A stretch of DNA of 64,000 nucleotides from Parcubacteria group bacterium GW2011_GWA1_56_13 (GCA_001004905.1 LCRY01000001.1:10461-74460), one strand, 5' to 3'. Positions 9,566 to 64,000 are shown, counted from the stretch's first letter. Made by a program: numbers and translations. The notes: a model not told the origin generated them from the letters alone.

Positions 9566-10309
9566 GTGATATCGACTTTTTTTCACGCCGTTTTTTATGA
9601 CCCGATTTATAATGCGCTCGTAGCGCTCGTAGCGCTCGTTCCCGGCTCTGATGTTGGTATCGCGGTCGTTCTCGTTACCATTATCATCCGGCTGATACTG
9701 CTTCCCTTCTCATTATCGGCAGCGCGCACTCAGCGGGCGATGAAAGTTTTGGAGCCGAAACTCAAAGAACTAAAGGAGAAACACAAAGGGAATAAAGAAA
9801 AAGAAGCACTCGAAACCCTTGGGCTCTACCGTGAGGCGCGAGTGAACCCGTTTGCGAGCATCCTTATGGTGTTCATTCAAATCCCCGTTCTGCTCGCCCT
9901 CTACTGGGTTTTCTATTATGAGCCGTTGTCCACCATCAACGTAGCGCAGCTCTACTCATTCACTCCCGTTCCACACGCGGTCTCACTCCAATTCCTCGGC
10001 CTCATATCGGTCGCCGGCAAGAGTTTGGTTCTTGCGGTCCTCGCCGGTCTTACCCAATTCTTTCAGGCGCATATGGCGCTCTCCGGGACGATGAAACCGT
10101 CGGATGCGAAGGGAATTCAGAACGACTTCCAGAGAGTCATGGGGATGCAGCTGAAATATGTATTTCCGTTCATTATCGGTGTTATTTCCTACACGACCTC
10201 CGGTGCCATCGCGCTCTACTTCATCACGACCAATCTTGCTGGTGCCCTCCAGGAGTGGCATGTGCAGCGTGTCATAGCCCGGGAAACCTCAGAGCGAGTA
10301 GCCCCATAA
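9566..10309 (+). CDS. yidC: Membrane protein insertase YidC/Oxa1, short form
   Basis: 247 aa polytopic membrane protein directly after rnpA; conserved YidC core helices. Confidence 0.8.
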   Translation: MISTFFHAVFYDPIYNALVALVALVPGSDVGIAVVLVTIIIRLILLPFSLSAARTQRAMKVLEPKLKELKEKHKGNKEKEALETLGLYREARVNPFASILMVFIQIPVLLALYWVFYYEPLSTINVAQLYSFTPVPHAVSLQFLGLISVAGKSLVLAVLAGLTQFFQAHMALSGTMKPSDAKGIQNDFQRVMGMQLKYVFPFIIGVISYTTSGAIALYFITTNLAGALQEWHVQRVIARETSERVAP

Positions 10310-11512
10310 CGAACCATCATTCTTGTTGGTGAATACAAGCACGGTGTCCAGCGAATCGACCGCAGGCGCCTCGACATCGAGAGATTCCTTGGTTTCTTTA
10401 GAGAAGTCCAGAATAAACTGGGCATAACGCCCAGTGACCTGTATTTTCCATATCCTGTCGGTAAATGACACGGTGCCCCGGTACCAATCATCGGGATACC
10501 GGGAGCCCTGAGGTGGATTCATGGGGACCCCGCAATAAATGGTAGAATCGTCCGCCGTCCACACGCATTTATCCGCGATGGACGCAATGGGAAGAGGGAT
10601 CTTCTCTCCGGTCGCCACGTTCGCTAATTCCATCTGCATTGCGCCGCCGGCGTCGGCGTAACTTACGAGCAACCATTTGCCGGAGTGGCTTGCTTTGGCG
10701 ACAAGACCGTTGCGTGGCCCCGCGACACGGGAAAAATATCCAGCGCCATCGACGAGGAATGCAGCGCCCGGAAGAGTGGCGGAAGGTTTGGTGTACGCGA
10801 GATATTGGTTCTTCCCGGCGAATGCGACGCGCAATGACGACAACGGCGTCGAAAATATCTGTGAAGCATGTGTGCCGTCGGTTCGGGCAAGCGAAGCGAC
10901 CGAGCCGTTCACGCCGGAGGAGAGTGTGAGCACGCCTGTCGAGGAAACGGCGATATCGGAAAGATTCTGTGGCAGGAAAAATCCATCAGAACCGTCTGTC
11001 CGTAAGGCGTAGGTGTTGGTGGTGGAGAAATCAGCGCCTGAAAGATAACGCACGAAAACCCCGGACGCATCCGGGAGCCAGACGGCGGACTGAATGCCCG
11101 GGATGGTCCGGTTGCTTATCCGCGTCAGTGTACCTGTGCGCACGGAATATGAATACACATTGCCACTTTGTCGCTCGATGTAACTCACGATGGTTTCCCC
11201 TGTCCCGAGCGAAGTGGAGGGAGACGCAGAACTCTCGCCATCGCTGTTCACCACCATCTCGCCCGGCACCACCGGCCCGGCGCTTATTTTCACGAGTCGG
11301 GGGGGAGGGGTCGGAGAAGTGTTCGTAGTAACGGTCGTCGTTCCGAACTCTTCGACGGGAGAAGACGCACCTTGCCCTGCGATCGGCAGGTCCACACTTC
11401 CAGCAGGAGCAACGACGACGCTTGCGGTATTGACGAAAAAGTAAAAATAGGCGGCGGTTCCGGTCCCGGCCAGGACTATCACGATGGCGATGATGGTAAG
11501 TGCGCGGCGCAT
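10289..11512 (-). CDS. Hypothetical N-terminally membrane-anchored extracellular protein (possible beta-propeller)
   Basis: N-terminal TM IIAIVIVLAGTGTAAYFYFF; Thr/Pro-rich linker; no recognised motif; last gene of the minus-strand T4SS-like operon. Confidence 0.5.
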   Translation of the reverse strand: MRRALTIIAIVIVLAGTGTAAYFYFFVNTASVVVAPAGSVDLPIAGQGASSPVEEFGTTTVTTNTSPTPPPRLVKISAGPVVPGEMVVNSDGESSASPSTSLGTGETIVSYIERQSGNVYSYSVRTGTLTRISNRTIPGIQSAVWLPDASGVFVRYLSGADFSTTNTYALRTDGSDGFFLPQNLSDIAVSSTGVLTLSSGVNGSVASLARTDGTHASQIFSTPLSSLRVAFAGKNQYLAYTKPSATLPGAAFLVDGAGYFSRVAGPRNGLVAKASHSGKWLLVSYADAGGAMQMELANVATGEKIPLPIASIADKCVWTADDSTIYCGVPMNPPQGSRYPDDWYRGTVSFTDRIWKIQVTGRYAQFILDFSKETKESLDVEAPAVDSLDTVLVFTNKNDGSLWGYSL

Positions 11513-11513
11513 A

Positions 11514-12209
11514 TCAATATCTCACACACGGATTTTGCACCGGCGTGGAACCCTGACCATCAGTGCAAGAAACTTGCGTGAGATTTTCTCTACAAAGGTC
11601 GTTGAAAAATTGTCGACAACCGTTTGAGTCCCTGGCACAAAAGTAACTTTTTCCATCAACAACGGCTTCTGGTTTCAGTTGAATACAGTAAGTACCCGTT
11701 TGAGGCGATGCATAGTAATCCTGCTGAAAACCAATGATCTGGCCGTTATTTATAGCGCGCGTACTTCCTGCTCGGACCGATTCCTGTACGTACTGCGTCT
11801 GTTGGGTTTGCGGTGAGCCGGACCTGGTATCAAGCGGGGGAAGGTTAACGGAGAGATTGAGGATACTCGGGTTGATGATGGAGAAGACGAGTGCGGGAGA
11901 GAGGACAAGCACGAGGCCGAAAATGGCGTTGTATATTTTTCCCTTGCTGTCCGTGAGAATACTGACATTATCTTGGTTCGTCGCTATTCGGAGCCCTTCC
12001 CAAACGATCATGAGGACGGCAAGTACCGCGGCAAGGCCAATGAGATATTTATAAAGATTGTTGAAAAATGCCGCGAGTCCTGCCGAGTCGGCCGTCACTC
12101 CTTGGGTCAGTCCCGGAATGGGGGCGAGCGGAATGAATCCATCCGCGAATGCATGCGGCGCTACGCCGAAGAAAAAGAGCGTCACGGCGATAAATAACAT
12201 TTTTTTCAT
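11514..12209 (-). CDS. Secreted/membrane protein with VirB2/TrbC-like topology and a Cys-rich C-terminal extension
   Basis: Signal peptide MKKMLFIAVTLFFFGVAPHAFA followed by two long hydrophobic segments; six Cys in the C-terminal 80 aa; 4-nt overlap with the upstream gene. Confidence 0.35.
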   Translation of the reverse strand: MKKMLFIAVTLFFFGVAPHAFADGFIPLAPIPGLTQGVTADSAGLAAFFNNLYKYLIGLAAVLAVLMIVWEGLRIATNQDNVSILTDSKGKIYNAIFGLVLVLSPALVFSIINPSILNLSVNLPPLDTRSGSPQTQQTQYVQESVRAGSTRAINNGQIIGFQQDYYASPQTGTYCIQLKPEAVVDGKSYFCARDSNGCRQFFNDLCRENLTQVSCTDGQGSTPVQNPCVRY

Positions 12210-13201
12210 AGGCCGAAGAAATTAGTGCTCGGTTTCGCCCCGAATATAAGCGGAAGATTCGCGGCGGCGGTTGCCGCGTTACCGGAGGAAGCGGTGAGCG
12301 AGAGCGAAGCGGTTCCCCTCCCCTCGCCGGTGGGGCGTAGTGTTATCAAGTTGCCGGTTTGTGCCGCCACGCCGTTTAAAAACCACTGGAGCGTTGGCAC
12401 GCCGCCCGAGAGAGGGAACGAGAAGGGCGCCGCGTAGAACGTGGCCTCCGCACCGCTCATGGTGTAACTGCCGGCGAGAGCACGTCCGAAGCGGATGCCG
12501 AGCAGTGGATCGTTCTCGTATATGTGCACGGAAGGTTCGAGCGCGGAAAACGACAGTGAAGCGCCGCCGACGATGGTCCCGGCGGCGTTCGTTACGGTGA
12601 CGGAGATTTCGCGTGTGCGGTACTGAAGCGGCGCAGCGGCAATGATGCTTGATTTTCCGATACCGGAGGAATCCATGACACGTGCACCGTCAACCGTCCA
12701 TGCGTAGGAGTATGTCGCCGGGATGGATGTTTTCCCACTGGCGTCCCTCAGGTTTGCAATGGCGATTATTCGTACGCTCCCTTCGAGCGGCACGAAAGGC
12801 TTGCCTGGGTAAAGAGGGGGGAAGGAGGATACTGGTTCGGCAATCAGCAGCACGTCCTGAGGTTGGAGAGAGACCGTCTGATTTGAAGAAATGCTGCCCG
12901 AGGATATTGTCACCCTTACGTTCATGATACTCCCCGCTTTCCCGAGTGGAACGGTGACGGGACGCACTGCGCCTTTATATATCTCCTTGCCCGAAGCCGA
13001 GACAGTGAGCGTTGCATTTGCAAGTTCCAGCGAATCGGACAGAACCGAGAGTGTGGCGTTGCTATAAGGAGCGGGATACTGCGGGTTAACCGAGAGCGTG
13101 AAGGCATTGCCGGTTATACTCCCGAGGTTTTCAAGAGATTGCGCCGATGCCAGAAACGGTAACACAAGGGCGACGCCACAGATCGCAAAAGCGAGACGCA
13201 T
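12206..13201 (-). CDS. Hypothetical secreted protein (Ig-like or repetitive beta-rich)
   Basis: Signal peptide MRLAFAICGVALVLPFLASAQS; Ser/Thr-rich; operon with the VirB4-like gene. Confidence 0.5.
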   Translation of the reverse strand: MRLAFAICGVALVLPFLASAQSLENLGSITGNAFTLSVNPQYPAPYSNATLSVLSDSLELANATLTVSASGKEIYKGAVRPVTVPLGKAGSIMNVRVTISSGSISSNQTVSLQPQDVLLIAEPVSSFPPLYPGKPFVPLEGSVRIIAIANLRDASGKTSIPATYSYAWTVDGARVMDSSGIGKSSIIAAAPLQYRTREISVTVTNAAGTIVGGASLSFSALEPSVHIYENDPLLGIRFGRALAGSYTMSGAEATFYAAPFSFPLSGGVPTLQWFLNGVAAQTGNLITLRPTGEGRGTASLSLTASSGNAATAAANLPLIFGAKPSTNFFGL

Positions 13202-13231: not shown

Positions 13232-13900
13232 CTACGCCGCCTCACGCGCTTTTTCGGGGATTCCGTATTCGCCGCCCTCGGCGTGCGCCTGTTCGTACCA
13301 CTCATCATCGGCCGCCTCTGTTTCCGCGCGGTCCTGCAAAAGCCGGGCCATCCGCCGGTTCTGTTGCTGTAGCTGGGAGGCGGCTTGTTCTTTTTCGAAT
13401 GTTTGCAGCGCCGCCTTTTCCACCCGTATCTGCGTACGGTACATTTTCCACACGACGAGAGTAATAACAGGAACGGATCCGACGATAGGGATCTCGCTTA
13501 CCAGCAAACTTCCGGCGAACCACAACGCATTTTCTTTGAATATACGTCCATTCGTGACGAGAAGTATGATCCCAACAGTAAGCCATCCGGCAAATCCTAC
13601 CGCCATCGCCATTATCACGCCGAATGGCGCGATCATTTCTATAGCGACGGCTCCCACGAGCCCCGCGCCGGCCGTGCATACAAGAGCGGCCGTCTTCGTT
13701 CCAAGTAGCCCGAATGTCCACGCCTCCAAGGTGCCGCTCGTCGTTATCGTGCAGTAGAGGGCGGCAAGCGCGGGTCCAAAAAACCAAAACATCTCGAACA
13801 TCAAGCGCAGTGCATCAAAAATGGCGGAGACCGCCAGCACGGGGGTAGCTCTTCCCCACATCATCACCTTTGGCGGAGCACTATTTCTTTTCTGCGGCAT
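13232..13900 (-). CDS. Hypothetical polytopic membrane protein with a C-terminal coiled-coil tail
   Basis: 4-5 predicted TM helices; Gln/charged-rich C-terminal tail; located between the VirB4-like and secreted genes. Confidence 0.5.
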   Translation of the reverse strand: MPQKRNSAPPKVMMWGRATPVLAVSAIFDALRLMFEMFWFFGPALAALYCTITTSGTLEAWTFGLLGTKTAALVCTAGAGLVGAVAIEMIAPFGVIMAMAVGFAGWLTVGIILLVTNGRIFKENALWFAGSLLVSEIPIVGSVPVITLVVWKMYRTQIRVEKAALQTFEKEQAASQLQQQNRRMARLLQDRAETEAADDEWYEQAHAEGGEYGIPEKAREAA

Positions 13901-15844: not shown

Positions 15845-16480
15845 TCAGTTGTCGAGGCGAATGGGGTTCTCAAGCTCTCCGGGATTGAAGGAACGGTACA
15901 AGAGTTCGATGATCTCCTCGGTTCCGAGCGGAACCGCTCGTACGCCGGTGCCGACGAGCCCTTCCGCGACGAGCGAGAGCCGCTGCTCAAGTTGCGCGCG
16001 GTCCTGCTCGAACGAGGCCTCTTGGGCGGCGCTCTTTACCGATGCGCTTTCGCGCTTCAGAAAGCTGACGGTCGCTGCGGCGGACACGTGCGGCGTGTAC
16101 GGCACGATGATGTAGAACGATTTTGTCATGATATTCGCTTGGTCCGTAAACGAGCGTACGAACTCGACGTACTCGTGCAACTGGATGCGCATAAGCTCGG
16201 TCTTTTGCTCCGGCGCTTTCTCTGCAAGTAGGGCGAGATACGGGCGCAGGTCCATACGGCGCGAATTGATGACGATCTGGATGGAAAAATCGAGCGTATT
16301 GAGAAAATTCTGGAAGCCAAGGACGATGGCATGCTGTTCATCGGCGGATTTAAGGCCGAAGTTGATGGAAGAACAGATAAGTACGCCGCGATAGCCGCCG
16401 TCTTTGAGGACGATAGTTCCGTTCCGTATCTCTTTGACCGGAACGAACTGCTGCGTTGCGCCTGCCGATTTAGTCGCCAT
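15845..16480 (-). CDS. VirB4 N-terminal-domain-like protein (possibly the split N-terminal part of the adjacent VirB4)
   Basis: 211 aa. The stop (15845-15847) lies 2 nt from the ATG (15840-15842) of the VirB4 ATPase ORF in a different frame. Combined 820 aa matches a full-length VirB4. Confidence 0.5.
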   Translation of the reverse strand: MATKSAGATQQFVPVKEIRNGTIVLKDGGYRGVLICSSINFGLKSADEQHAIVLGFQNFLNTLDFSIQIVINSRRMDLRPYLALLAEKAPEQKTELMRIQLHEYVEFVRSFTDQANIMTKSFYIIVPYTPHVSAAATVSFLKRESASVKSAAQEASFEQDRAQLEQRLSLVAEGLVGTGVRAVPLGTEEIIELLYRSFNPGELENPIRLDN

Positions 16481-16481: not shown

Positions 16482-16928
16482 TCAAGTATCGCGTTCAGCG
16501 GGATTCACATCTCCCTTTTTTACGTCAAGTGACCACGCGAGTTCGGAGAGTTTCCCTCGGGTGAGCTTCGGCGTGCCACGCCTGGGTAGCTGCGCCGCCT
16601 CGGCAGCCGCCGCTGCAGCGGTCGCGGCGGTATATTCCTTGACCCCCGTCTCTTTATGTTTCCAGAGGAAGAATTTCGCGCCGGTGTAATAATTGAAACC
16701 GGCCTCCAGGATCTCGATAAATGCCTTGCCGTTCACCTTATAGAATGCGAGTGCCGCGCCGAATCCTGCCACGAGGGCCGAGAGCACGATCGCGAAGATC
16801 ATCGGCAGATAAACGAAGAACACGACGCAAAGCCCCGCAGCGCCGGCGATATAGATGAATTGTTTGAGGGTCAGAGGCCCGATGATCTTGTCCTCTACCT
16901 CGATGAACTGCGGCACTTGGTACTCCAT
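16482..16928 (-). CDS. PrgI-family (VirB3-like) small membrane protein
   Basis: N-terminus MEYQVPQFIEVEDKIIGPLTLKQFIYIAGAAG matches the PrgI-family start (VP..I..EDKI.GPLT..Q.IY); two TM segments; first gene of the operon. Confidence 0.55.
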   Translation of the reverse strand: MEYQVPQFIEVEDKIIGPLTLKQFIYIAGAAGLCVVFFVYLPMIFAIVLSALVAGFGAALAFYKVNGKAFIEILEAGFNYYTGAKFFLWKHKETGVKEYTAATAAAAAAEAAQLPRRGTPKLTRGKLSELAWSLDVKKGDVNPAERDT

Positions 16929-17569: not shown

Positions 17570-18223
17570 TCATATGCTCCCGCCTGTCAGAAGTCCAAAC
17601 AGCCAGAGGACGAAATGAAAGAACGGCGTGGCAAAAATGTACGAGAAGATGATGAGGAACAGGACGAGAGAGAGTGCTCCGGCAGTACGGACCTGCTGCT
17701 CGAAGCGGCTCAAGCCAGGCGCGAGGTGCCACGGCAGCGCGGAACGCAGCGCGGTGAATCCGTCGAGCGGCGGGAATGGGATGAGATTGAAGAGGCCGAG
17801 GAAGAGGTTTATGAACGCGATGGTCGCGGCCAAAGAAAGCGCGGTTGCCGACAGCAGAGTGTCGCCCGTAGCGAGCGGAACAGAGCCAACACGGACGATG
17901 AGGCCGAAAATGACCGCAAGGAGGATATTCGTGCCGCTTCCGGCGACGGCAACGAGCGTTTCTCCCCAGTGCGGATTCCTCAGGTTGAAGGGATTGTATG
18001 GGACGGGCTTTGCCCAGCCGAAGAGGATGGGTGACCCCGTAAAGACGAGCAGCGCCGGAATGACGACGGAGCCCATGAGGTCGATGTGGGGAAGCGGATT
18101 GAGCGTGAGGCGCCCGGCGAGTCGGGCGGTCGGGTCGCCGAGCGAATTGGCGGCGTAGCCGTGCGCCACCTCATGCGCTATGACGGAAAAGACAAGAATG
18201 ACGAGAGAAAGAATACTGTCCAT
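17570..18223 (-). CDS. Site-2 protease family (peptidase M50) membrane metalloprotease
   Basis: HEVAHGYAA HExxH motif within the first TM region; multiple TM helices; 217 aa. Confidence 0.8.
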   Translation of the reverse strand: MDSILSLVILVFSVIAHEVAHGYAANSLGDPTARLAGRLTLNPLPHIDLMGSVVIPALLVFTGSPILFGWAKPVPYNPFNLRNPHWGETLVAVAGSGTNILLAVIFGLIVRVGSVPLATGDTLLSATALSLAATIAFINLFLGLFNLIPFPPLDGFTALRSALPWHLAPGLSRFEQQVRTAGALSLVLFLIIFSYIFATPFFHFVLWLFGLLTGGSI

Positions 18224-21209: not shown

Positions 21210-21800
21210 ATGAACTACTCACCAAAGACATTCAAGCTCCCGAAACTCGAGGGAATTTCCGAGAAGCAGCTCAAAGTGCATCTTGCTTTGTACGAAGGAT
21301 ACGTGAAGCACGTAAATCTCATCATGGATACCATTGCCAAGCAGGGTAAGGCCGATGACGAGGGCGGGAAATATGCGACCGCGGAATTGCGCCGCCGTCT
21401 CGCGTTCGAGTTCGACGGCATGCGCATGCACGAGTACTACTTCGAACAATTCGAAGGCGAAAAAGGAGGGAGTTCGGATTCAGGACTCGGGAAGGCGGCA
21501 AAGGAAAAATACGGCAGCGGCGAGAAGTTTATTGAACACATCAAGGAAGTCGCCGGTACGCGCGGCATCGGCTGGGTCGTCGTCTATAAGGACGCGCGTG
21601 CGGATACTATCCACACCGTTTTCGTCACCGATCACGAGCTCGGCCAGCTCGCCGGGCTCCCTATCATCCTCGCGCTCGACCTGTGGGAGCACGCGTATAT
21701 GGTGGATTATGTTCCGGCCGAAAAGAAAAACTACATTGACGCTTCCCTTGCGAACGTCAATTGGAGCGTCGTCGAAAAGCGTTTCGACGAAGCCAAGTAA
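21210..21800 (+). CDS. Fe/Mn superoxide dismutase family protein
   Basis: C-terminal PIILALDLWEHAYMVDYVPAEKKNYIDASLANVNWSVVEKRF matches the SOD D.WEHAY...NW..V..R motif; N-terminal LPKLEG...YVKHVN region; overlaps the ComEC ORF 3' end convergently by about 70 nt. Confidence 0.7.
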   Translation: MNYSPKTFKLPKLEGISEKQLKVHLALYEGYVKHVNLIMDTIAKQGKADDEGGKYATAELRRRLAFEFDGMRMHEYYFEQFEGEKGGSSDSGLGKAAKEKYGSGEKFIEHIKEVAGTRGIGWVVVYKDARADTIHTVFVTDHELGQLAGLPIILALDLWEHAYMVDYVPAEKKNYIDASLANVNWSVVEKRFDEAK

Positions 21801-23263
21801 ATCAATCCGGCGTACGCAACGAGTGCAAGCCAGAACGGGAACGGCGGGAGTGAGAATGCCGCAAGCGGTAGCGCGGCGGACTCGCGCGCGATAAATAAGA
21901 GGTAAGCATTCGCAAGGTACGCGGGGAATGCGAGCACGATGCCAATGAGCGGGGCCATAGAACCGAACAGCATTCCCGCAAAGCCCGCGAGGGCGGAAGA
22001 CCCCATCGCGAGCGGGACAAACGGCATCACGAGCAGGTTTGCCGGAATGGAAACGAGCGAGAGATTGCCGGTGTCGTAGAGGAGAAGCGGCAGCACGGCG
22101 ATCTGCGCCGAAAGCGTGGTCGCCACCGCATTTTTCCAGAATGAGCTTTTCATAAACGACAAAAACGTCTCGACGATGGGAGCGAGCCAGATGAGTCCGG
22201 TAGTTGCCGCCACCGAAAGGCCGAAGCCGGGGTCAAAGACGAGGTAGAGAGGGTTCCAGAGGAGCATGAGGAACACAACGAGGAGGAGCGCCCGACCGGC
22301 CGCATAGGTGCGGCCGGTCGCGCGGGCGTAGAGCGCGATGAGCGCCATGAGCGCGGCGCGCAGCGCCGTCGCCGAGAACCCAGCGATACCCACGAACATA
22401 AGCAGGGCAAACGCTCCGGCCGCCGCGCCCCAACGCCTCGGGAGCGCAGTGAGCGCGAGCGCGGCTATCACCCACTCGGCAACGACCATGACGTTGTAGC
22501 CGGAGAGCACGATTATCTGCACGAGGCCGCTGCGGACGAAATCTTCCTTTACTTTCTCGCCCAATCCCGATTTGCCGCCGATGACGATGCCGCTGGCCAG
22601 GGATGCATGGGGCTCGGGTAATGTCGCGGCGATACCATCAAGGAACGCATGCTTTACGCGCGCAAGCGCGGCCGGAAGCGAGTACCACGGCGCTGGCGAT
22701 TCGACGCGCAGGTATGCGAAATTGAGCATAAAACGCACGCCGTCGCGCTCCAGATATTTGTCGTAGCGGAATATGCGGCCATTATCGTCGGCGAACGGTT
22801 CCGGGATGGCGAGCGTTCCCGACACGAATACTCGGTCGCCGACGGCGACGCTTGGATAGCGCGGTGCGACTGCCAGCATCGTCGTTGATTCATTCCCTTT
22901 TGAAACTCGTATTTCGACGCGCTGGTTCGCATCACGCACATCGGGGTCGCTCACCACGATGCCTTCATACGAAACTCGCTGCCCCACTTCGGCGACGAAG
23001 ACCGTCGGCAGAGGCGATTCGGAAAGCGCCATGCGCACCGCGCCGAGCGCGGCCACGAGGCAAAAAGCGATGGCGAGCGCATAAAATATATGCCGCTTGA
23101 AGTAGTAGAACGCGCCGAACACACCCGCCGCGAGCACAAAAAATACCGCCGGTTCCCATCCCGACGTGAGCGACCGTACGAACACCCCTCCCGCGAATCC
23201 TATGACAACGGCAATAAGTGCACCCACGTAAAGTATGGTAGCGCAACCTGGGTCTTGACACAT
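21731..23263 (-). CDS. comEC: DNA internalisation-related competence protein ComEC/Rec2 (DUF4131 plus Competence domain, no MBL domain)
   Basis: 510 aa polytopic; Competence-domain motifs LALTALPRRWGAAAGAFALLMFVGIAGFSATALRAALMALIALYA...LLWNPLYLV.DPGF. Confidence 0.8.
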   Translation of the reverse strand: MCQDPGCATILYVGALIAVVIGFAGGVFVRSLTSGWEPAVFFVLAAGVFGAFYYFKRHIFYALAIAFCLVAALGAVRMALSESPLPTVFVAEVGQRVSYEGIVVSDPDVRDANQRVEIRVSKGNESTTMLAVAPRYPSVAVGDRVFVSGTLAIPEPFADDNGRIFRYDKYLERDGVRFMLNFAYLRVESPAPWYSLPAALARVKHAFLDGIAATLPEPHASLASGIVIGGKSGLGEKVKEDFVRSGLVQIIVLSGYNVMVVAEWVIAALALTALPRRWGAAAGAFALLMFVGIAGFSATALRAALMALIALYARATGRTYAAGRALLLVVFLMLLWNPLYLVFDPGFGLSVAATTGLIWLAPIVETFLSFMKSSFWKNAVATTLSAQIAVLPLLLYDTGNLSLVSIPANLLVMPFVPLAMGSSALAGFAGMLFGSMAPLIGIVLAFPAYLANAYLLFIARESAALPLAAFSLPPFPFWLALVAYAGLIYLASSKRFSTTLQLTFAREASM

Positions 23264-54498: not shown

Positions 54499-55647
54499 TC
54501 ACTGCGGAGAGCACACAGAACCAACACGGCAGGTGCGGAAGGGGTTGGCGGCACCGCGGACTTCGAAGTGGAGGTGCGTGCCGGTCACACGGCCGGTGGC
54601 GCCCACATAGCCGATGACCTGTCCTTGTGTCACCGCCTGACCCATGCCGACGGCATTACTGCTGTTGTGGGAATAGAGCGTCTGCGTTCCGTTCGCATGC
54701 TGAAGCACGATGTAGTTTCCGTAGCCGCCGTTCCAACCACCCGCGCGCGCAATGATGACCGTACCGTCTGCCGCCGCACGAATGGGAGTGCCGCGCGGAG
54801 CGCCAAAATCAATTCCGTTCCAACCATGCAGTCCTTGGGTCACACGGCTTCCCGGCACCGGATGGGCGTAATAGCCGGCGATGAACGTACCACCGGCACC
54901 GCGAAGTGTGGAAACGGCGGTTTGCGGGCGCGCCGCAGGCGGCGCGACGACCTCGCCGCCCGGAATGATAACGGTCGTACCAACGGCAAGCGGCGCACTC
55001 TCGTCAAGTCCGTTGAACTGCGCGATCTCGTCTGCGTCTCCGCTGTATTTCCTTGCAAGCGACCCGAGCGTGTCCCCCTTTACGACCTTGTGCTCGATGC
55101 CGGACACCGGAAGGATAACGAGCGTATCGCCCGGATGCACGTCCCGCGCGCTCTTCAAGTCGTTCGCCCAGATAATCGTATTTATGGAAACGTTGAACAT
55201 GCCCGCAATGTCCGAAAGCGTGTCATCCGGTCGTACGACGTAGACGGAGATACGACCGGGAGTCGCGGACCCCGCGACGTCGGCGATCGTGCCGGAAGGC
55301 CCGGAAAAAGCAAGCAGGGCCCTACCACCGCTTGTCTGAAGCGTGTCGAGGAGGCCTTTATTGGGATTCGGGTCCGAATTAGTGGCGGCGACGAGCGCTG
55401 GCGTTCCCGTATCCGGCATGAATGCATTCACTGCCGCCGCAGCGTTCGTAGAGAATGACCAGAACGCGCTGGCGTAGTTCGGCAGGACCGCGGCGAGCGC
55501 CACAATCGCACATCCCGATATGAAAAGCTGTTGAGTGAATTTTATAGGAAAACGAGGCGGGGCGGGTTGTCTGTCAGGATACAAGAATGGCTTACATACT
55601 CTCGTATATAAGCCATTCCTTGAATGCTTTCGTATCAGCCGATACAA
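54499..55647 (-). CDS. LysM-domain-containing M23-family peptidoglycan endopeptidase
   Basis: Two LysM repeats (DTLSDIAGMFNVSINTIIWAN; KGDTLGSLARKY); M23 motifs HNSSNAVGMG and GTHLHFEV; N-terminal membrane anchor. Confidence 0.8.
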   Translation of the reverse strand: MYRLIRKHSRNGLYTRVCKPFLYPDRQPAPPRFPIKFTQQLFISGCAIVALAAVLPNYASAFWSFSTNAAAAVNAFMPDTGTPALVAATNSDPNPNKGLLDTLQTSGGRALLAFSGPSGTIADVAGSATPGRISVYVVRPDDTLSDIAGMFNVSINTIIWANDLKSARDVHPGDTLVILPVSGIEHKVVKGDTLGSLARKYSGDADEIAQFNGLDESAPLAVGTTVIIPGGEVVAPPAARPQTAVSTLRGAGGTFIAGYYAHPVPGSRVTQGLHGWNGIDFGAPRGTPIRAAADGTVIIARAGGWNGGYGNYIVLQHANGTQTLYSHNSSNAVGMGQAVTQGQVIGYVGATGRVTGTHLHFEVRGAANPFRTCRVGSVCSPQ

Positions 55648-58887: not shown

Positions 58888-59919
58888 ATGGGGCAAATTC
58901 TGCGAAATTGGCGAGTTACCCTAGCGGCGTTTTTTGCAGTAGCAGCCATCATCGGTTCGTACCTGCTTGCTCGCGGTATCGAGTCGCCTCCGGCGGCGCA
59001 GGCGTCGACGGAATCGGCGCTACTGCAGGCGATCGCGGAGAAGGACTCGGACGGCGATGGACTTCCCGACTGGGAAGAAGCACTCTACGGCACATCGGCG
59101 AACATCACCGACACGTTTCGTCTCGGTATGGCCGACGGTGAGGCGGTCGCGAAGGGTCTCATCGTGCCGAGGGCCATCGCCGATATGTCTACCCTGGCTT
59201 CTTCACCGGCAGTACCCGGTCCCAACGGTCTTCCGCCGGCGCCTGCGGAAGGAACGCTCACTGCCGCTTTCGCGCAGAATTTTTTCACGCTCTATCTTGC
59301 GGCAAAGCAACGCAAAGGAGGAGAGAATCTCTCCGAAAGTGATATGGCGAATGTCGCGAACGAAGCGCTAAGCTCACTTTCCTCCGCGATAACCGCCGCA
59401 CCCGATTTCAAGTCGGCGAAGGACCTCACGGTGTCCGGTTCCGGTGCGGAGGCGCTCAGAGCATTTGCCGCGGACGCGGAAGCCGTGCTTCTGAAGAATA
59501 CGAACAATGCGACGACCAGTGAACTTAACTATTTAAAGAATGCAGTGGAGAATAACGACATCACTGCGCTTTCGCATATCGCCTCGATAGCAAAGGGGTA
59601 TCGTGATTCTGCAGCCGGCCTTGCGATGCTTCCTGTACCGCAAGAACTCGCCAGCGTCGATCTCGCTCTTATAAACTCGCTTATGCGCATGAGCGAGATA
59701 GCGACCGATTTCACGCGCGTGAACGATGACCCTCTTGCGGCGATGCTTGCACTCCAGCAATATCCGCAGGCGGTGCTCGCACTCGGGAACGCTTTTGTAC
59801 GCATCGGCACTATCTACAAGGATGCGGACGTTTCTCTTCTTGCGAGCACGCCGGGCGCTTCCTTCGTCAATCTCATCTCGGATGTCGCGGCGAGCAAGCA
59901 GGTAGCCAAGAAACCATGA
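58888..59919 (+). CDS. Hypothetical membrane-anchored extracellular protein with a calcium-binding-like DxDxDG motif
   Basis: N-terminal TM TLAAFFAVAAIIGSYLLA; DSDGDGLPDWEE; first gene of a 4-gene operon joined by 4-nt overlaps. Confidence 0.45.
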   Translation: MGQILRNWRVTLAAFFAVAAIIGSYLLARGIESPPAAQASTESALLQAIAEKDSDGDGLPDWEEALYGTSANITDTFRLGMADGEAVAKGLIVPRAIADMSTLASSPAVPGPNGLPPAPAEGTLTAAFAQNFFTLYLAAKQRKGGENLSESDMANVANEALSSLSSAITAAPDFKSAKDLTVSGSGAEALRAFAADAEAVLLKNTNNATTSELNYLKNAVENNDITALSHIASIAKGYRDSAAGLAMLPVPQELASVDLALINSLMRMSEIATDFTRVNDDPLAAMLALQQYPQAVLALGNAFVRIGTIYKDADVSLLASTPGASFVNLISDVAASKQVAKKP

Positions 59920-61601
59920 AGTCACGTCTATTTTCTTCAACACTAGCATCGTTACTCGTTGTCGCACTAATCGTGCCATCTGTTTTTCTAGTCGCACCGC
60001 AAAAAGTGCAAGCCGTTTCATCGTTCGAAACGAACCCAGTCATAATTACCAATACTGTAATTTCTGCAATAAAAGCCACACTCTCTGCCGCGCTTGATGT
60101 CACCAATACTGCCGCAAACGTTGCGCGGGAAGTTAATACCTACGTTCTTCAGCCGCTCGCTTTCGTCCTCTCGGGCAACCTGATGAAGCTCATCACCGCG
60201 AGTGTCATCGCCTTCGTCATCGGTAAGACGAACGGCACCGGCGTGCCGCAATTCGTGCAGAACCTGCAGGGACACATGCAAATGGTAGGTGATACGCAAG
60301 CATCCGCATTTTTTGCCCAATTCGGCAGGAATTCGAATTCACCGTTCGCCGCTGCGATCAGCTCATCGCTTCGCACGTACTACCTTCAGAATACAAGTTC
60401 TGCGGGATTCTTCGCCGCCAATCAAAACACGCTGAATCGCGTATGCCCGAATTCGGACGCCTTTCTTGCGGGCAACTGGCCGCAATGCGGCGCGGGAGCA
60501 TGGTTAGCGCTTACGGGCCCCAATCCGAACAATCCATACATTTTAAATCAAGCTGCGGAGAGCCATCTGGCGTCCGTCGTGGGTGGCGCACAAGCCGCGC
60601 GCAGTGCGGAACTAGATTGGGCACAGGGATTTCTTTCCTGGTGCGGTCCGGCTGAAATGCCGACTACGGATTCGGGTGATGGGACGGCGATGGAGGGTAC
60701 TGCACCCGGGGATGCTTGCACGCAGAGCGACGGCACACCGGGCACCATCAAAACGCCCGGCTCGGTTATCAAAGCCGTAGCCGATGAGGCGATTACTCTC
60801 CCGTGGAAGAAGCTCGCCGAAATGGGTAGCTTGGCGAAAGAAGTGAATCAAATCCTCGGCAATGTGGGGACAGTTCTCGCCACGGTGAACTTTGCCTCCG
60901 AGCTTCTCGGAGGCCCGGACTCCGGTGGCCTCTTCGGCGTCGGGCAGACGTCCGTCTCACAGCCCACCTCACGGCTCGTGCAGTATCAGACGGCACCGGG
61001 ATACTTTGGCGTCACGCCAGGGCAGGTGTATCAAAATGCGGCCACGCTTCCGTCATCTGGTTCTGACATGTCGAACCGTATAACGCAATACCGATCAACA
61101 TGGAATACGATAGCCGCGTCGGCGAACGCTGCATCGACAACAGTTGCCAGTTTGGTGAATTTCTGCACGACGGCTGCAATCCAAAATCCCGACACTGCAA
61201 GTACCTATGAAGCACAGGCAACGGCGGCACGCACGGCGCTTTCAACTGAGATAGCCCCTGTTCTCGCGAAGGCGGATGCCGCCTTCGCGACGATTGAGGA
61301 GGCGAGCGCTCTCGTACAGAAGGTGCAGACCGAACTGAACTCCGGCATTGACCCGAAAAGCGGTGCATACCTTGCCGATTTGCAGACGCTCCAGACAATG
61401 TCGCCGACCGATTTTGACGTCATAAACGTCCAACAGGACACGCAGGCTTTTGGGCAGTCAGTCGCCACTCCCGCAGGGTCTCTTACGGTAGGGGGCGGTT
61501 CGCTCATTGACCAGATGAGTCTCCTTGCCACGAATGCCCAAGCGATTAAAAACGCGGGGTGCACCACAATTTCGCAAGGAGGAACGGAGGCCGCCATATG
61601 A
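59916..61601 (+). CDS. Hypothetical large secreted protein
   Basis: Signal/anchor SSTLASLLVVALIVPSVFLVAP; Ala/Thr/Ser/Gly-rich; 561 aa; overlaps both neighbours by 4 nt. Confidence 0.45.
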   Translation: MKSRLFSSTLASLLVVALIVPSVFLVAPQKVQAVSSFETNPVIITNTVISAIKATLSAALDVTNTAANVAREVNTYVLQPLAFVLSGNLMKLITASVIAFVIGKTNGTGVPQFVQNLQGHMQMVGDTQASAFFAQFGRNSNSPFAAAISSSLRTYYLQNTSSAGFFAANQNTLNRVCPNSDAFLAGNWPQCGAGAWLALTGPNPNNPYILNQAAESHLASVVGGAQAARSAELDWAQGFLSWCGPAEMPTTDSGDGTAMEGTAPGDACTQSDGTPGTIKTPGSVIKAVADEAITLPWKKLAEMGSLAKEVNQILGNVGTVLATVNFASELLGGPDSGGLFGVGQTSVSQPTSRLVQYQTAPGYFGVTPGQVYQNAATLPSSGSDMSNRITQYRSTWNTIAASANAASTTVASLVNFCTTAAIQNPDTASTYEAQATAARTALSTEIAPVLAKADAAFATIEEASALVQKVQTELNSGIDPKSGAYLADLQTLQTMSPTDFDVINVQQDTQAFGQSVATPAGSLTVGGGSLIDQMSLLATNAQAIKNAGCTTISQGGTEAAI

Positions 61602-63658
61602 CCCGTTTCCCCGCCATCGTCTTCATCGCCCTCGCGCTCTTTGTCGGCGTGGCGGGCGCAGCGCCCGCCACGCATGCGCAAACCACTTGTACGAATGTAG
61701 GCAGTTCTTGCACCACAGCGGATGGTTCTATCGGCACCTGTGCTTCAGACCCTGATACTAATGGTCTTTACTGTCTCTCGAGTGCGTATGGCACAGCGAC
61801 GGCGAACAATCCTGGGGGCTCAGTCGACAAAGCAGCCGCGGCAACACCGAAGGCGCTCCCGCCGGATCCCGACATGAGCAAGGGATTCGGTACCATCATG
61901 ACCTGGATAATGTCCCTTTTTGCGTGGCTCGTTGGGGTTGCGGCGATCACGCTCGATTACGCCGTGTATTACACAGTCGTCACGATGGGGGATTACGTGA
62001 ACAAGCTTTCGGCCGTCGGCGTGACCTGGCGCATCATGCGCGATTTCGGCAACATAGCACTCATTTTCGGTTTCCTTGCCGCCGGAATTATGACGATTCT
62101 CAACGTGGACTGGTATGGATTTGGGAAGAAAATGCTTCCCATGCTTGTCGTCAGTGCCGTACTCCTCAATTTCTCGCTTTTTGCGGCCGAGGCGGTGATA
62201 GATGCCGGGAATCTTTTCGCAACGCAGTTTTATACGCAAATCAAGGGCGGCACTGTGCCCTCACAGGTCTCACTGTCTCAAACAACCATTGAAAATGAAG
62301 GTATTTCGAACAAAATAATGGCTCAGCTGGGGCTCCAGACCATCTATACCGCCGGCAGGGTGAATACTGAAGTGTACAAGGCCGGAAACACGTGGCTCAT
62401 CGGTTTTATGGGCATCATCCTTTTCACTATTACGGCGTTCGTGATGTTCTCGCTCGCCTTCATACTCATCGCGCGATTCGTCATACTCCTCGTTCTTATC
62501 ATTGTCGCGCCTCTCGGCTTCGCGGGGCTTGCCATACCGAAACTCAAAAGTGTTGCGGACAAGTGGTGGGCGGCACTCTTTGAACAGACCATCACGGCAC
62601 CTGTACTCCTCCTCCTGTTGTATGTCGCTCTTGCGGTCATCACGGATGCTCAATTCCTTACCGGCCTCTGCGGTGGCGGGACCTGCTCAAAAAATTGGAT
62701 AGGTTTCGTGAACGGGAATGATCTGGCCGGCTTCGCGAGCATGATACTTTCCTTCCTTGTCGCGATGGGACTTCTGCTCGCGGTCGTCGTCGCTTCAAAG
62801 AAACTGTCCGCCTTCGGCGGTGATTGGGCAATCAAAAGTGCCGGCAAGCTCAGCTTCGGCGCGACTGCGTGGGCGGGACGCAATACGGTCGGGTGGGGAG
62901 CCCAAGGTCTTTCCCAATACATTCGCAGAAGTCGGATTGGAGGCACAAAGGCAGGGCGTCTATTCGCTACAGCGGCCGATTATGGAGCAAAGGGAAGTTT
63001 TGACGTGCGAGGGGCCACTCTTTTTGGCGGTTTGAAAGCAGTTGGAGTCGATGCCGGTAAGGCCCAGGATGGCGGATACAGGGGACGTCGAGAACGGGCA
63101 ATGAAGGGCCATGAGGATTATGTAAAATCCATTGGTAAGGCATATAGTGAACAGGGCGCGACCGCTAAACAACAACGTGCACTCGCTGAAGAGCAAGCGC
63201 GGGCAAAAGACGTTGGTGAGAGAGCGAAGGCCGACAAGGCAGAAGCCGAACGTCTGCAAAAAATTTATGACACCAATCGTCAGAAAGGCATCCTTACCGA
63301 TCAGCAAACTATAAATGAACTCAATGCCGCAAAGGGAAGACGCGATGCAAGCGCGGCGGAGGCTGAGGCGGCACAAATCCGACTCAAAACAGCTAAGGAT
63401 GAAGTGGATAGGGCCAATAAAGGAGTCTCAGACGCGGAGAGAAACGCGAAACTGGGATATGCCGAAAATATCAATCGTTCTGTACTGGGCTGGGCGCTAT
63501 TCGGTCCGGGAGGCAGCGCTTCGGCGCGGAAGATTATCAAGGACGCGACCAAAGATCCGAACAAACAAATTCTTGATACTCTCAGAAAAGTGGTTGAAGA
63601 CCAGGAGCAACCAAAAGAAGAAAAGAAATCTGAAGAACCCAAAGCACCAGGGACCTAA
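61598..63658 (+). CDS. VirB6/TrbL-like polytopic inner-membrane protein (candidate T4SS channel component) with a Cys-rich N-terminal domain and a coiled-coil C-terminal domain
   Basis: Signal peptide; 8 Cys in the first 60 mature residues; at least 6 TM helices; about 250 aa Lys/Glu/Ala-rich cytoplasmic tail. The topology matches TrbL/VirB6 and TcpH-like proteins. Confidence 0.4.
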   Translation: MTRFPAIVFIALALFVGVAGAAPATHAQTTCTNVGSSCTTADGSIGTCASDPDTNGLYCLSSAYGTATANNPGGSVDKAAAATPKALPPDPDMSKGFGTIMTWIMSLFAWLVGVAAITLDYAVYYTVVTMGDYVNKLSAVGVTWRIMRDFGNIALIFGFLAAGIMTILNVDWYGFGKKMLPMLVVSAVLLNFSLFAAEAVIDAGNLFATQFYTQIKGGTVPSQVSLSQTTIENEGISNKIMAQLGLQTIYTAGRVNTEVYKAGNTWLIGFMGIILFTITAFVMFSLAFILIARFVILLVLIIVAPLGFAGLAIPKLKSVADKWWAALFEQTITAPVLLLLLYVALAVITDAQFLTGLCGGGTCSKNWIGFVNGNDLAGFASMILSFLVAMGLLLAVVVASKKLSAFGGDWAIKSAGKLSFGATAWAGRNTVGWGAQGLSQYIRRSRIGGTKAGRLFATAADYGAKGSFDVRGATLFGGLKAVGVDAGKAQDGGYRGRRERAMKGHEDYVKSIGKAYSEQGATAKQQRALAEEQARAKDVGERAKADKAEAERLQKIYDTNRQKGILTDQQTINELNAAKGRRDASAAEAEAAQIRLKTAKDEVDRANKGVSDAERNAKLGYAENINRSVLGWALFGPGGSASARKIIKDATKDPNKQILDTLRKVVEDQEQPKEEKKSEEPKAPGT

Positions 63659-63661
63659 ATT

Positions 63662-64000
63662 ATGGACCAGAATCAAATCGAACCAACATTAGAGGCCAGT
63701 ATTCGGGAGGTGATGCAGACGTTGCCGCCGCCAATTCGCAGCTACCTTGCGCAGGGAAGGTACACGTCGGTCGCGAAAAATTTAATGATGAAGCATCGCC
63801 TGCGCATTGACCAGGCGGGCATTCTCGAGCGGGAAATAATGCTTCTTCTCATGGGCATCGAGAATCCGGATGAGTTTACGCAGTCGCTTGCCGAGGAAGC
63901 GAAGCTCGACGAACAGACCATCAATGGCATCGTGCAGGACGTGAACGAGCAGATTTTTATTCCGCTTCGGGAAGAGATGCGCCGTGGCGAACAGAAACCG
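63662..64000 (+). CDS. Hypothetical protein, 3'-truncated by the window end
   Basis: ORF starting MDQNQIEPTLEASIREVMQTLPPP; continues past 64000; follows the VirB6-like gene after a 3-nt gap. Confidence 0.4.
   Translation, partial: MDQNQIEPTLEASIREVMQTLPPPIRSYLAQGRYTSVAKNLMMKHRLRIDQAGILEREIMLLLMGIENPDEFTQSLAEEAKLDEQTINGIVQDVNEQIFIPLREEMRRGEQKP

What the first reader, a model, noticed from the sequence alone, without database searches (positions are those of the whole stretch)
58888..64000. Operon of three extracellular proteins ending in a VirB6/TrbL-like polytopic protein with a Cys-rich periplasmic head and a coiled-coil tail
Seen directly: four plus-strand ORFs are chained by ATGA-type 4-nt overlaps or a 3-nt gap. 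The first has an N-terminal anchor and a DSDGDGLPDWEE calcium-binding-like motif. The second is a 561-aa protein with an N-terminal signal/anchor. The third (61598-63658) has a signal peptide, 8 Cys within about 60 residues, at least 6 TM helices and a roughly 250-aa Lys/Glu/Ala-rich cytoplasmic tail. Established knowledge: this topology matches VirB6/TrbL and TcpH. Inference: this locus may supply the missing VirB6 channel subunit and surface components of the T4SS-like system at 11.5-16.9 kb. If so, the apparatus is split between two chromosomal loci.
Basis: partly seen in the sequence, partly recalled or inferred. Interest (0 to 1): 0.6.

Follow-up and report, generated by a model that had tools for sequence, protein, structure and literature searches.

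The report
VirB6-like module of a split Patescibacterial T4SS
This four-gene operon in a Candidatus Kaiserbacteria chromosome encodes the membrane-platform (VirB6-like) subunit and three unnamed partner proteins of the already described Patescibacterial type IV secretion system. In this genome it lies about 42 kb from the ATPase and pilin genes, although in related genomes the two parts form one cluster.

Summary
The ORFs are real. Four plus-strand genes run P1 58888-59919, P2 59916-61601, P3 61598-63658 and P4 63662 to beyond the window end. They are joined by two ATGA overlaps and a 3-nt gap.

One detail is wrong: P3 has 4 Cys in its N-terminal head plus 2 in a later loop, not 8, and the Cys head is not conserved among homologues. 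The operon also does not end at P3, because P4 (268 aa, Pro-rich tail) follows.

P3 has a signal peptide, 7 TM helices and a 283-aa charged tail. P3 itself fails Pfam TrbL (E=3.7). Three lines still point to VirB6:
- Close relatives are the only ones with recurrent Pfam hits, all to TrbL or TrbL_4. One orthologue scores 29.0 bits against a cut-off of 27.
- In 15 distinct related loci, P1-P2-P3-P4 is followed directly, on the same strand, by the exact gene series of the window's 10.3-16.9 kb locus: VirB3-like, TrsD-like, VirB4, three more genes, and the pilin.

The Patescibacterial T4SS and its VirB6 homologues were published in 2025, so this is a new member of a known kind. P1, P2 and P4 remain uncharacterised.

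The parts
58888..59919 (+). P1, 343 aa. N-terminal anchor or signal, a TSP3-like D-x-D-x-DG-x-x-D-W-E-E motif at residues 53-64, then an Ala/Leu-rich extracytoplasmic domain. Role unknown.
   Evidence: It is conserved next to P2 and P3 in 71 of 80 GTDB loci. A PDB profile search found nothing.
59916..61601 (+). P2, 561 aa secreted or anchored protein. C243, C268 and C417 are invariant. The C-terminal helical bundle (about residues 380-550) is modelled confidently. Role unknown.
   Evidence: There is no Pfam, NCBIfam or PDB match. Foldseek gave only generic helical bundles.
61598..63658 (+). P3, 686 aa 'extended' VirB6/TrbL-like polytopic membrane protein. It has a cleavable signal peptide, a variable extracellular head (residues 28-96), 7 TM helices (96-406) and a 283-aa charged helical cytoplasmic tail.
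63662..64000 (+). P4, the first 113 codons of a 268-aa protein. It has no TM segment, a helical N-domain of about 100 aa, and a Pro-rich tail with an invariant DPYRE motif near the C-terminus. Role unknown.
   Evidence: It lies between P3 and the VirB3-like gene in the contiguous loci.
16482..16928 (-). VirB3/PrgI-like small membrane protein (148 aa), the first gene of the ATPase-pilin half of the system.
   Evidence: Pfam PrgI PF12666, E=2.5e-9, 38 bits. It follows P4 directly in 15 distinct related loci.
15845..16480 (-). 211-aa soluble protein in the position of the TrsD-like component described for Patescibacterial T4SS.
   Evidence: Synteny. There is no Pfam hit. The BLASTP match to the N-terminal region of PrgJ/VirB4 is only weak (E=0.032). 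The TrsD assignment comes from PMC12102498.
14013..15842 (-). VirB4-type ATPase, 609 aa.
   Evidence: Pfam P-loop_TraG PF19044 at 1.6e-25 and AAA_10 at 2.1e-11.
13232..13900 (-). 222-aa polytopic membrane protein with a charged C-tail. It is unassigned and not related to P3.
   Evidence: It is syntenic in related loci.
12206..13201 (-). 331-aa secreted protein, unassigned.
   Evidence: Signal peptide. Weak BiPBP_C match at 4.6e-4, below the cut-off. Syntenic in related loci.
11514..12209 (-). VirB2-like T4SS pilin, 231 aa, with a C-terminal extension carrying 6 Cys.
   Evidence: Pfam T4SS_pilin PF18895, 4.9e-7, 30.2 bits against a cut-off of 26.6. TrbC/VirB2 at 1.2e-4. Cys positions.
10289..11512 (-). 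407-aa N-terminally anchored extracytoplasmic protein, the last gene of the cluster. yidC and dnaA follow.
   Evidence: The same neighbours (yidC, dnaA) occur in the contiguous loci.
54499..55647 (-). LysM + Peptidase_M23 cell-wall hydrolase. It is a possible VirB1-type accessory and is conserved upstream of uvrD-ksgA-P1. Its assignment to the system is an inference.
   Evidence: Pfam M23 at 1.8e-31 and LysM at 4.9e-23. Present in 52 of 80 GTDB loci. The literature notes M23/LysM VirB1-like proteins near virB4 in Paceibacteria.

Best explanation
The four genes P1-P2-P3-P4 are one half of the chromosomal, origin-proximal type IV secretion system typical of Patescibacteria. This system is related to the MPF-FATA conjugation machinery of monoderm bacteria. 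The other half lies at 10.3-16.9 kb in the same window and encodes the VirB3-like, TrsD-like and VirB4 proteins, three unassigned envelope proteins, and a VirB2-like pilin.

P3 is the VirB6 equivalent. By analogy with R388 TrwI, I infer the following:
- P3 oligomerises in the cytoplasmic membrane as the platform on which pilin subunits are recruited from the membrane.
- The VirB4 ATPase energises lifting of pilins into a growing filament or channel.
- The 283-aa charged helical cytoplasmic tail, which minimal VirB6 proteins lack, most likely contacts the VirB3/TrsD/VirB4 complex.
- P1 and P2, both exported, are probably lineage-specific extracellular parts of the apparatus, and P4 a cytoplasmic accessory.

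In most Kaiserbacteria-like genomes, including this one, the two halves are separated. A single inversion with a breakpoint exactly at the P4|VirB3 junction would account for this. It left P1-P4 between ksgA and the rpsL-rpsG-fusA-tuf operon.

Shown here: gene structure, topology, family-level TrbL homology, fold resemblance, and contiguity in relatives.
Inferred: oligomeric state, pilin handling, the role of the tail, the roles of P1, P2 and P4, and the direction of the rearrangement.
For: Identity of the organism:
- P3 is 100% identical to a protein of a Candidatus Kaiserbacteria MAG, GCA_003531405.1.

Sequence:
- Weak TrbL alignments fall at the same place in P3 and its homologues (P3 170-394 against profile positions 19-213).
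- TrbL_4 and TrbL are the only recurrent Pfam families among 61 relatives (8 and 6 members, best E=4.4e-7 and 1.7e-6).
- The L067 orthologue reaches 29.0 bits for TrbL_4 against a cut-off of 27.
- Positive controls show how weakly monoderm VirB6 proteins score. PrgH reaches 29.2 bits and Tn916 Orf15 only 17.9 bits, against 170.7 bits for TrwI.

Structure:
- The AF2 model has mean pLDDT 75.9.
- The top two Foldseek PDB hits are TrwI/VirB6, 8rt9_F at prob 0.98 and 8rtd_L at prob 0.94. Another TrwI/VirB6 chain, 8rtd_H, is at rank 14 (prob 0.44). All other hits are at prob 0.30 or below.

Topology:
- Signal peptide, N-out, 7 TM helices, C-in. The Cys358/Cys363 pair falls in a loop predicted to be outside.

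Context:
- P1-P4 synteny holds in 71-80 of 80 GTDB loci.
- 15 distinct loci are fully contiguous: M23(-), uvrD, ksgA, P1-P4, VirB3, TrsD, VirB4, 222, 331, pilin, 407, yidC(-), dnaA. Intergenic gaps at the P4/VirB3 junction range from 11 to 28 nt.
- The yidC-dnaA flank is the same one that borders the window's VirB4 locus.

Literature:
- The Patescibacterial T4SS has VirB4, TrsD, PrgI, VirB6 and VirB2-like pilins near dnaA, and KsgA is frequent near virB4 (PMC12102498).
- The T4SS, including its virB6, is essential in S. epibionticum.
- VirB6 acts as a pentameric base and pilin recruitment site in R388 (PMC9259494).
Against: - P3 itself does not pass any TrbL model (7.7 bits).
- Profile searches of the P3 family against PDB sequences find only coiled-coil noise from the tail.
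- hhalign of the P3-family TM domain against a TrwI-family alignment gives a collinear alignment with P about 0.02-0.03, but it scores barely better than a reversed decoy (24.2 against 20.7).
- In this genome and in most relatives the operon sits among housekeeping genes, not next to virB4.
- One P3-bearing draft MAG is listed without VirB4.
- No evidence of any kind assigns functions to P1, P2 or P4.
Confidence: 0.78

Rival explanations
1. P1-P4 is an independent cell-envelope module, for example for host attachment or surface organisation. In this reading it merely sits near the T4SS in origin-proximal DNA, and P3's likeness to VirB6 is a generic resemblance between polytopic helical proteins.
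For: - P3 itself fails Pfam TrbL.
- hhalign against the TrwI family is no better than a decoy.
- Most loci place the operon between ksgA and rpsL, away from virB4 (67 of 80; 43 of 80).
- P1 carries a TSP3-type motif common in surface proteins.
- P2 resembles only generic surface helical bundles.
Against: - The TrbL-family hits are the only recurrent ones among relatives, and one orthologue passes the curated cut-off.
- VirB6 is the top natural match by two independent structure-comparison methods.
- In 15 distinct loci the operon is fused head-to-tail with the VirB3-VirB4-pilin genes with intergenic gaps of a few tens of bases at most.
- No other VirB6 candidate exists in the window's VirB4 locus. 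The 222-aa membrane protein is unrelated to P3 and has no TrbL hit.
Confidence: 0.12
2. The operon is a housekeeping membrane complex tied to translation or cell growth. It would be co-transcribed or co-regulated with ksgA and the str ribosomal operon and be unrelated to secretion.
For: The position ksgA - P1-P4 - rpsL-rpsG-fusA-tuf is conserved in most relatives. No clear promoter or terminator signal above chance lies inside the operon.
Against: - Three of the four products carry export signals.
- The family is confined to Patescibacteria-type metagenomic proteins.
- In the contiguous loci rpsL is absent and the T4SS genes take its place. The link to the str operon is therefore not conserved, whereas the link to ksgA and the T4SS is.
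Confidence: 0.05
3. P3 is a TcpH/Tn916-Orf15-type protein left behind by an integrated conjugative element.
For: The architecture is the same: a VirB6-like TM domain plus a long cytoplasmic C-terminal region. hhalign of the family against Tn916 Orf15 aligns the TM4-TM5 core (P=0.029, 54 columns).
Against: - The operon occupies the same chromosomal position across more than 100 related loci.
- GC content is like its surroundings (0.57-0.58).
- No relaxase, integrase or coupling-protein gene was seen in the gene lists or tblastn maps of the flanks.
- The Orf15 alignment is not significant.
Confidence: 0.03

Closest known systems
VirB6/TrbL family, structurally TrwI of plasmid R388 (PDB 7o3v, 8rt9)
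   Same: Both are polytopic inner-membrane helical proteins. TrwI is the best natural structural match. Relatives of P3 hit Pfam TrbL and TrbL_4. In related genomes P3 orthologues are encoded with VirB3, VirB4 and a VirB2-like pilin.
   Different: P3 is twice as long (686 aa against 342). It has a cleavable signal peptide, a hypervariable extracellular head and a 283-aa charged cytoplasmic tail. Its own sequence is below every TrbL threshold. The host is a monoderm without VirB7/9/10. No VirB5 homologue was identified.
Patescibacterial (CPR) chromosomal T4SS described by Quinonero-Coronel et al. 2025 (PMC12102498) and shown essential in Southlakia epibionticum (Wang et al. 2023, PMC10633639)
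   Same: The component set is the same (VirB4, TrsD-like, PrgI/VirB3, VirB2-like pilin, VirB6-like). The location near dnaA, dnaN and yidC matches, as does the ksgA neighbourhood. This very genome, GCA_003531405.1, is in their dataset as VirB4-positive.
   Different: Here the VirB6-like gene lies about 42 kb from virB4, probably outside the +/-20-CDS neighbourhood that study analysed. It sits inside a conserved four-gene module whose other three members have no assignment. I could not check whether that study called this protein VirB6, because Table S3 is not held.
Extended VirB6 proteins of monoderm conjugative elements (TcpH of pCW3, Orf15 of Tn916, PrgH of pCF10)
   Same: All have an N-terminal VirB6-like TM domain. 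TcpH and Orf15 also have a large C-terminal cytoplasmic region. All give weak or sub-threshold Pfam TrbL scores (PrgH 29.2 bits, Orf15 17.9 bits).
   Different: Those proteins are encoded on mobile elements together with relaxase and coupling-protein genes. P3 is a conserved chromosomal gene with no such neighbours. There is no significant direct sequence similarity.

Membership tests
VirB6/TrbL (Pfam PF04610 and related TrbL_4 PF19597) | The protein itself matches a TrbL/VirB6 sequence profile above threshold | tested here: inconclusive
   P3 scores E=3.7, 7.7 bits, against a cut-off of 25.9. The test is insensitive for monoderm members: PrgH reaches 29.2 bits and Tn916 Orf15 fails at 17.9 bits. 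hhalign against a TrwI-family alignment gives P about 0.02 but scores similarly to a reversed decoy.
VirB6/TrbL (Pfam PF04610 and related TrbL_4 PF19597) | Clear orthologues or relatives match a TrbL profile (transitive homology) | tested here: met
   Of 61 relatives (34-50% identity to P3), 8 hit TrbL_4 (best 4.4e-7) and 6 hit TrbL (best 1.7e-6). No other family recurs in more than 2 members. The L067 orthologue scores 29.0 bits for TrbL_4 against a cut-off of 27. P0043 scores 23.8 bits.
VirB6/TrbL (Pfam PF04610 and related TrbL_4 PF19597) | Polytopic cytoplasmic-membrane protein with five or more hydrophobic helices | tested here: met
   Hydropathy predicts 7 TM helices (residues 96-406), and the AF2 model shows matching long helices.
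VirB6/TrbL (Pfam PF04610 and related TrbL_4 PF19597) | Fold resembles a solved VirB6 | tested here: met
VirB6/TrbL (Pfam PF04610 and related TrbL_4 PF19597) | Encoded in a T4SS gene cluster with VirB3 and VirB4 | tested here: met
   Not adjacent in this window (about 42 kb apart, opposite strands). Orthologues are directly upstream of VirB3-like, TrsD-like and VirB4 in 15 distinct loci.
VirB6/TrbL (Pfam PF04610 and related TrbL_4 PF19597) | Forms the oligomeric membrane platform, binds pilin, and is required for T4SS function | not testable with these tools
   This needs multimer modelling, co-evolution analysis or experiment.
Patescibacterial MPF-FATA-like chromosomal T4SS | VirB4 ATPase together with PrgI/VirB3, a TrsD-like protein and a VirB2-like pilin, near dnaA | tested here: met
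   VirB4 PF19044 at 1.6e-25, pilin PF18895 at 4.9e-7, and dnaA, dnaN and yidC adjacent. PrgI PF12666 at 2.5e-9. The TrsD-like assignment rests only on position and a weak match.
Patescibacterial MPF-FATA-like chromosomal T4SS | No relaxase or coupling protein in the cluster | not tested
   None was seen among the genes examined. The whole window and genome were not screened.
VirB5 (candidate identity for P2) | Sequence or fold similarity to VirB5/TraC | tested here: inconclusive
   No Pfam or PDB sequence match. The P2 model is poor (pLDDT 57), and Foldseek returned only generic helical bundles with no VirB5.
Bacterial TSP3 repeat (P1 motif) | Match to PF18884 above threshold | tested here: not met
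   19.7 bits against a cut-off of 25. The single D-x-D-x-DG-x-x-D-W-E-E motif is conserved in 45 of 71 orthologues. It is a TSP3-like motif, not a demonstrated repeat domain.

The most novel reading that the evidence does not exclude
P1, P2 and P4 are previously unrecognised structural subunits of the Patescibacterial T4SS. P1 and P2 would form the extracellular stalk or tip that replaces VirB5, VirB8 and the outer-membrane core in a pilus-forming monoderm system. P4 together with the long P3 tail would form a new cytoplasmic adaptor to the split TrsD+VirB4 ATPase. This four-gene module would then define the missing half of a machine that is essential for the epibiotic lifestyle.
Probability: 0.35. 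Interest if true: 0.55.

Novelty: new member of a known kind. Interest (0 to 1): 0.3.

Why it matters
Patescibacteria depend on other cells. Their chromosomal T4SS is the only T4SS shown to be essential for growth of its owner, and its substrate and architecture are unknown. Published surveys detected only 480 VirB6 homologues, against 2,474 virB4 genes in the same dataset.

Two results here help to complete the parts list for Kaiserbacteria-like lineages:
- A very large protein family belongs to VirB6/TrbL (14,641 clusters at 50% identity with E<=1e-3; 4,306 with E<=1e-30).
- This VirB6-like protein travels with three conserved unnamed proteins.

The work also shows that searches limited to the virB4 neighbourhood miss components in genomes where the cluster has been split. 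This is an incremental gain, not a new kind of system.

Tried and rejected
- Pfam, NCBIfam and PADLOC scans of P1-P4 gave nothing above threshold.
- Profile searches of the P3, P2, P1 and P4 families against PDB sequences gave only coiled-coil noise or nothing.
- hhalign of the P3 family against single TrwI, PrgH and Orf15 sequences was not significant.
- hhalign of the TM-only P3 family alignment against a 121-sequence TrwI family alignment was collinear but indistinguishable from a reversed decoy, so I do not count it as evidence.
- The idea that P2 is a VirB5 analogue, based on gene order and a helical C-terminal domain, found no support from Foldseek, and the model is too poor to exclude it.
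- The idea that the 222-aa membrane protein next to VirB4 is the real VirB6 or a P3 paralogue was rejected: no similarity and no TrbL hit.
- The Cys-rich head as a defining feature was rejected, because it is hypervariable with 0-12 Cys.
- I could not identify the precomputed label PF19590 carried by some homologues. The current Pfam copy does not return it and no paper mentions it. From memory it is a TrbL-like family, but this is unverified.
- I could not check whether the 2025 survey had already called this protein VirB6, because its Table S3 is not in the stored supplement.
Full report
**What is in the sequence.** Region 58888-64000 holds four tightly chained + strand ORFs:
- P1, 58888-59919, 343 aa.
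- P2, 59916-61601, 561 aa.
- P3, 61598-63658, 686 aa counted from the ATG.
- P4, starting at 63662 and running off the window.

The P1/P2 and P2/P3 junctions are ATGA overlaps. P3 and P4 are separated by 3 nt, and a GGAGG precedes the P3 start. The same contig from other assemblies shows that P4 is 268 aa. It is followed by rpsL, rpsG, fusA, tuf and rpsJ, and the operon is preceded by uvrD and ksgA. P3 is 100% identical to a hypothetical protein of a Candidatus Kaiserbacteria MAG, GCA_003531405.1. The window is therefore chromosomal DNA of a Patescibacterium (CPR, class Paceibacteria).

- P1 has an N-terminal hydrophobic segment and DSDGDGLPDWEE at residues 53-64. Pfam TSP3_bac matches below threshold (19.7 bits against 25), but the motif is kept in 45 of 71 orthologues.
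- P2 has a signal peptide. The GenBank model of 531 aa omits it, while homologues support the 561-aa form.
- P3 has a signal peptide with an A-H-A|Q site, an extracellular head (residues 28-96), seven hydrophobic helices (96-406) and a 283-aa tail with 52 K+R and 38 D+E. The AF2 model is helical throughout.
- The claim of 8 Cys in about 60 residues is wrong. There are 4 Cys at positions 31, 38, 48 and 59, plus a pair at 358/363 in a loop that the topology places outside.
- In 46 homologues the head is hypervariable, with 0 to 12 Cys, nearly always an even number. The Cys-rich head is therefore not a family trait. The charged tail of 256-386 aa is.
- The operon does not end with P3.

**Is P3 a VirB6/TrbL protein? 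Sequence evidence.**
- Direct searches are negative for P3 itself. Pfam TrbL gives E=3.7 and NCBIfam gives nothing.
- A family profile finds only coiled-coil proteins in the PDB.
- The weak TrbL alignments fall at the same place in several homologues, and P0043 scores 23.8 bits on TrbL_4.
- I scanned 61 more distant relatives (34-50% identity to P3). The only families that recur in more than two members are TrbL_4 (8 members, best E=4.4e-7) and TrbL (6 members, best E=1.7e-6).
- The orthologue in locus L067 reaches 29.0 bits on TrbL_4, above the curated 27.
- Controls show that accepted monoderm VirB6 proteins are barely detectable. PrgH scores 29.2 bits and Tn916 Orf15 scores 17.9 bits, against 170.7 bits for TrwI.
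- Profile-profile alignment of the TM domain with a TrwI-family alignment is collinear (P3 131-395 against TrwI 18-258, P about 0.02-0.03). A reversed decoy scores almost as well, so I discount this result.

**Is P3 a VirB6/TrbL protein? Structural evidence.**
- The AF2 model has mean pLDDT 75.9.
- Its two best Foldseek PDB matches are TrwI/VirB6 of R388, at prob 0.98 and 0.94, with E 0.054 and TM-score 0.42 on the target. A third TrwI/VirB6 chain, 8rtd_H, ranks 14th at prob 0.44. All other hits are at prob 0.30 or below.
- The structural signal is specific in rank but modest in size.

**Genomic context, the strongest evidence.** At 10.3-16.9 kb on the minus strand, the window carries the following genes in order:
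- a PrgI/VirB3-like gene (PF12666, 2.5e-9);
- a 211-aa gene in the TrsD position;
- VirB4 (PF19044, 1.6e-25);
- a 222-aa membrane protein;
- a 331-aa secreted protein;
- a VirB2-like pilin (PF18895, 4.9e-7);
- a 407-aa anchored protein;
- then yidC, dnaA and dnaN.

I fetched 80 loci from GTDB species representatives using the P3 family. I fetched 80 more from metagenomes using a query biased to the most divergent orthologues. I then mapped all window proteins onto them.
- P1-P2-P3-P4 is almost always intact (71-80 of 80 GTDB loci).
- In 67 of 80 GTDB loci and 43 of 80 metagenome loci, rpsL follows P4, as in the window.
- In 4 GTDB and 14 metagenome loci, P4 is followed on the same strand by the full series. 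After de-duplication at 97% nucleotide identity these are 15 distinct loci. The series is VirB3-like, TrsD-like, VirB4, 222, 331, pilin and 407, then yidC(-) and dnaA. Gaps at the P4/VirB3 junction range from 11 to 28 nt.
- These are the same genes, the same order and the same flank as in the window's VirB4 locus.
- One inversion with a breakpoint at the P4|VirB3 junction converts the contiguous layout into the window's layout. The direction of this change is an inference.

A small co-occurrence check used the published genome table. This genome and 4 of 5 other P3-bearing Kaiserbacteria MAGs are VirB4-positive. The exception is a draft MAG.

**The partner proteins.**
- P1 and P2 are exported, and P4 is cytoplasmic.
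- P4 has a helical N-domain and a Pro-rich tail ending in an invariant DPYRE motif.
- None of the three has a Pfam, NCBIfam, PADLOC or PDB-sequence match.
- The P2 model is poor except for a C-terminal helical bundle. Foldseek gives only generic bundles, so a VirB5-like role suggested by gene order is not supported.
- A LysM-M23 peptidase upstream is conserved in 52 of 80 loci. It may be the VirB1-type hydrolase noted in the literature for Paceibacteria.

**Mechanism.** In R388, VirB6 forms a pentameric dome in the inner membrane. Its first TM helix recruits VirB2 pilin, and VirB4 is proposed to lever pilins to an assembly site on VirB6 (PMC9259494). The Patescibacterial system has VirB4, VirB3 and VirB2-like pilins. 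It lacks a relaxase in most clusters, and most T4CP homologues are encoded away from virB4. It is essential for epibiotic growth of S. epibionticum. I infer that P3 plays the VirB6 role. Its long cytoplasmic tail would contact the VirB3/TrsD/VirB4 complex, and P1 and P2 would contribute extracellular parts. None of this is shown here.

**Comparison and novelty.**
- The system type, its position near dnaA, the frequent ksgA neighbour and the presence of VirB6 homologues were published in 2025 (PMC12102498).
- That survey detected only 480 VirB6 homologues (304 near virB4) against 2,474 virB4 genes, and it concentrated on +/-20 CDS around virB4. That neighbourhood probably does not reach a gene 42 kb away.
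- The additions here are threefold. First, the P3 family is very large and belongs to VirB6/TrbL (14,641 clusters at 50% identity with E<=1e-3; 4,306 with E<=1e-30). Second, it lies in a conserved four-gene module with three unnamed partners. Third, the cluster is split in most Kaiserbacteria-like genomes.
- This makes it a new member of a known kind, of modest interest.

Noticed in passing
window 21731-23263 (-): A ComEC-type competence channel gene (Pfam Competence 1e-43, DUF4131 6e-12) lies about 5 kb from the VirB3 end of the T4SS locus. The literature reports competence genes near T4SS loci in another Patescibacterial class (ABY1). Any functional link here is unknown.
   Followed up: partly
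window 54499-55647 (-): A LysM + Peptidase_M23 gene is conserved upstream of uvrD-ksgA-P1 in 52 of 80 GTDB loci and in most metagenome loci, in both the split and the contiguous arrangements. It is a candidate VirB1-like cell-wall hydrolase for the T4SS.
   Followed up: partly
window 59916-60005: The GenBank protein for P2 (531 aa, DIV48_03470) starts 30 codons downstream of the ORF's ATG and so loses the signal peptide. Homologues cover 98-100% of the 561-aa form, and the ATG overlaps the P1 stop codon (ATGA).
   Followed up: yes
L001:12065-12871 (full-length P4; window 63662-64000 is its start): The Pro-rich tail of P4 (20-35% Pro) carries two conserved short motifs, LLEDHEEPHIE and an invariant DPYRE(PIE) at the C-terminus. 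They look like short linear docking motifs.
   Followed up: partly
window 11514-12209 (-): The VirB2-like pilin is 231 aa, far longer than classical VirB2. It has a C-terminal extension with 6 Cys (positions 175-228). In L069 the corresponding gene is 326 aa.
   Followed up: no
window 61679-61885 (P3 residues 28-96): The extracellular head of P3 is hypervariable among homologues in length (46-146 aa before TM1) and in Cys content (0-12, nearly always even). This pattern would fit an exposed, diversifying surface element.
   Followed up: partly
homologues P0042, P0043, P0045, P0064, P0072, P0090, P0097: The precomputed label PF19590.5 on these P3 homologues is not reproduced by the current Pfam scan, even at E<=10. 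No paper in the library mentions the accession, so its identity could not be verified.
   Followed up: partly
window 15845-16480 (-) and 14013-15842 (-): VirB4 is short here (609 aa). It is preceded by a separate 211-aa soluble protein that weakly resembles the N-terminal region of full-length PrgJ/VirB4 (BLASTP E=0.032). This fits the TrsD-type split of the VirB4 N-domain described in the literature.
   Followed up: partly
window 6000-10000: GC content dips (0.44-0.49 against about 0.55-0.6 elsewhere) over dnaN, dnaA and the dnaA-yidC intergenic region, as expected near a replication origin. A class A PBP (transglycosylase + transpeptidase) lies at 4225-6393 and an M50 peptidase at 17570-18223.
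   Followed up: no
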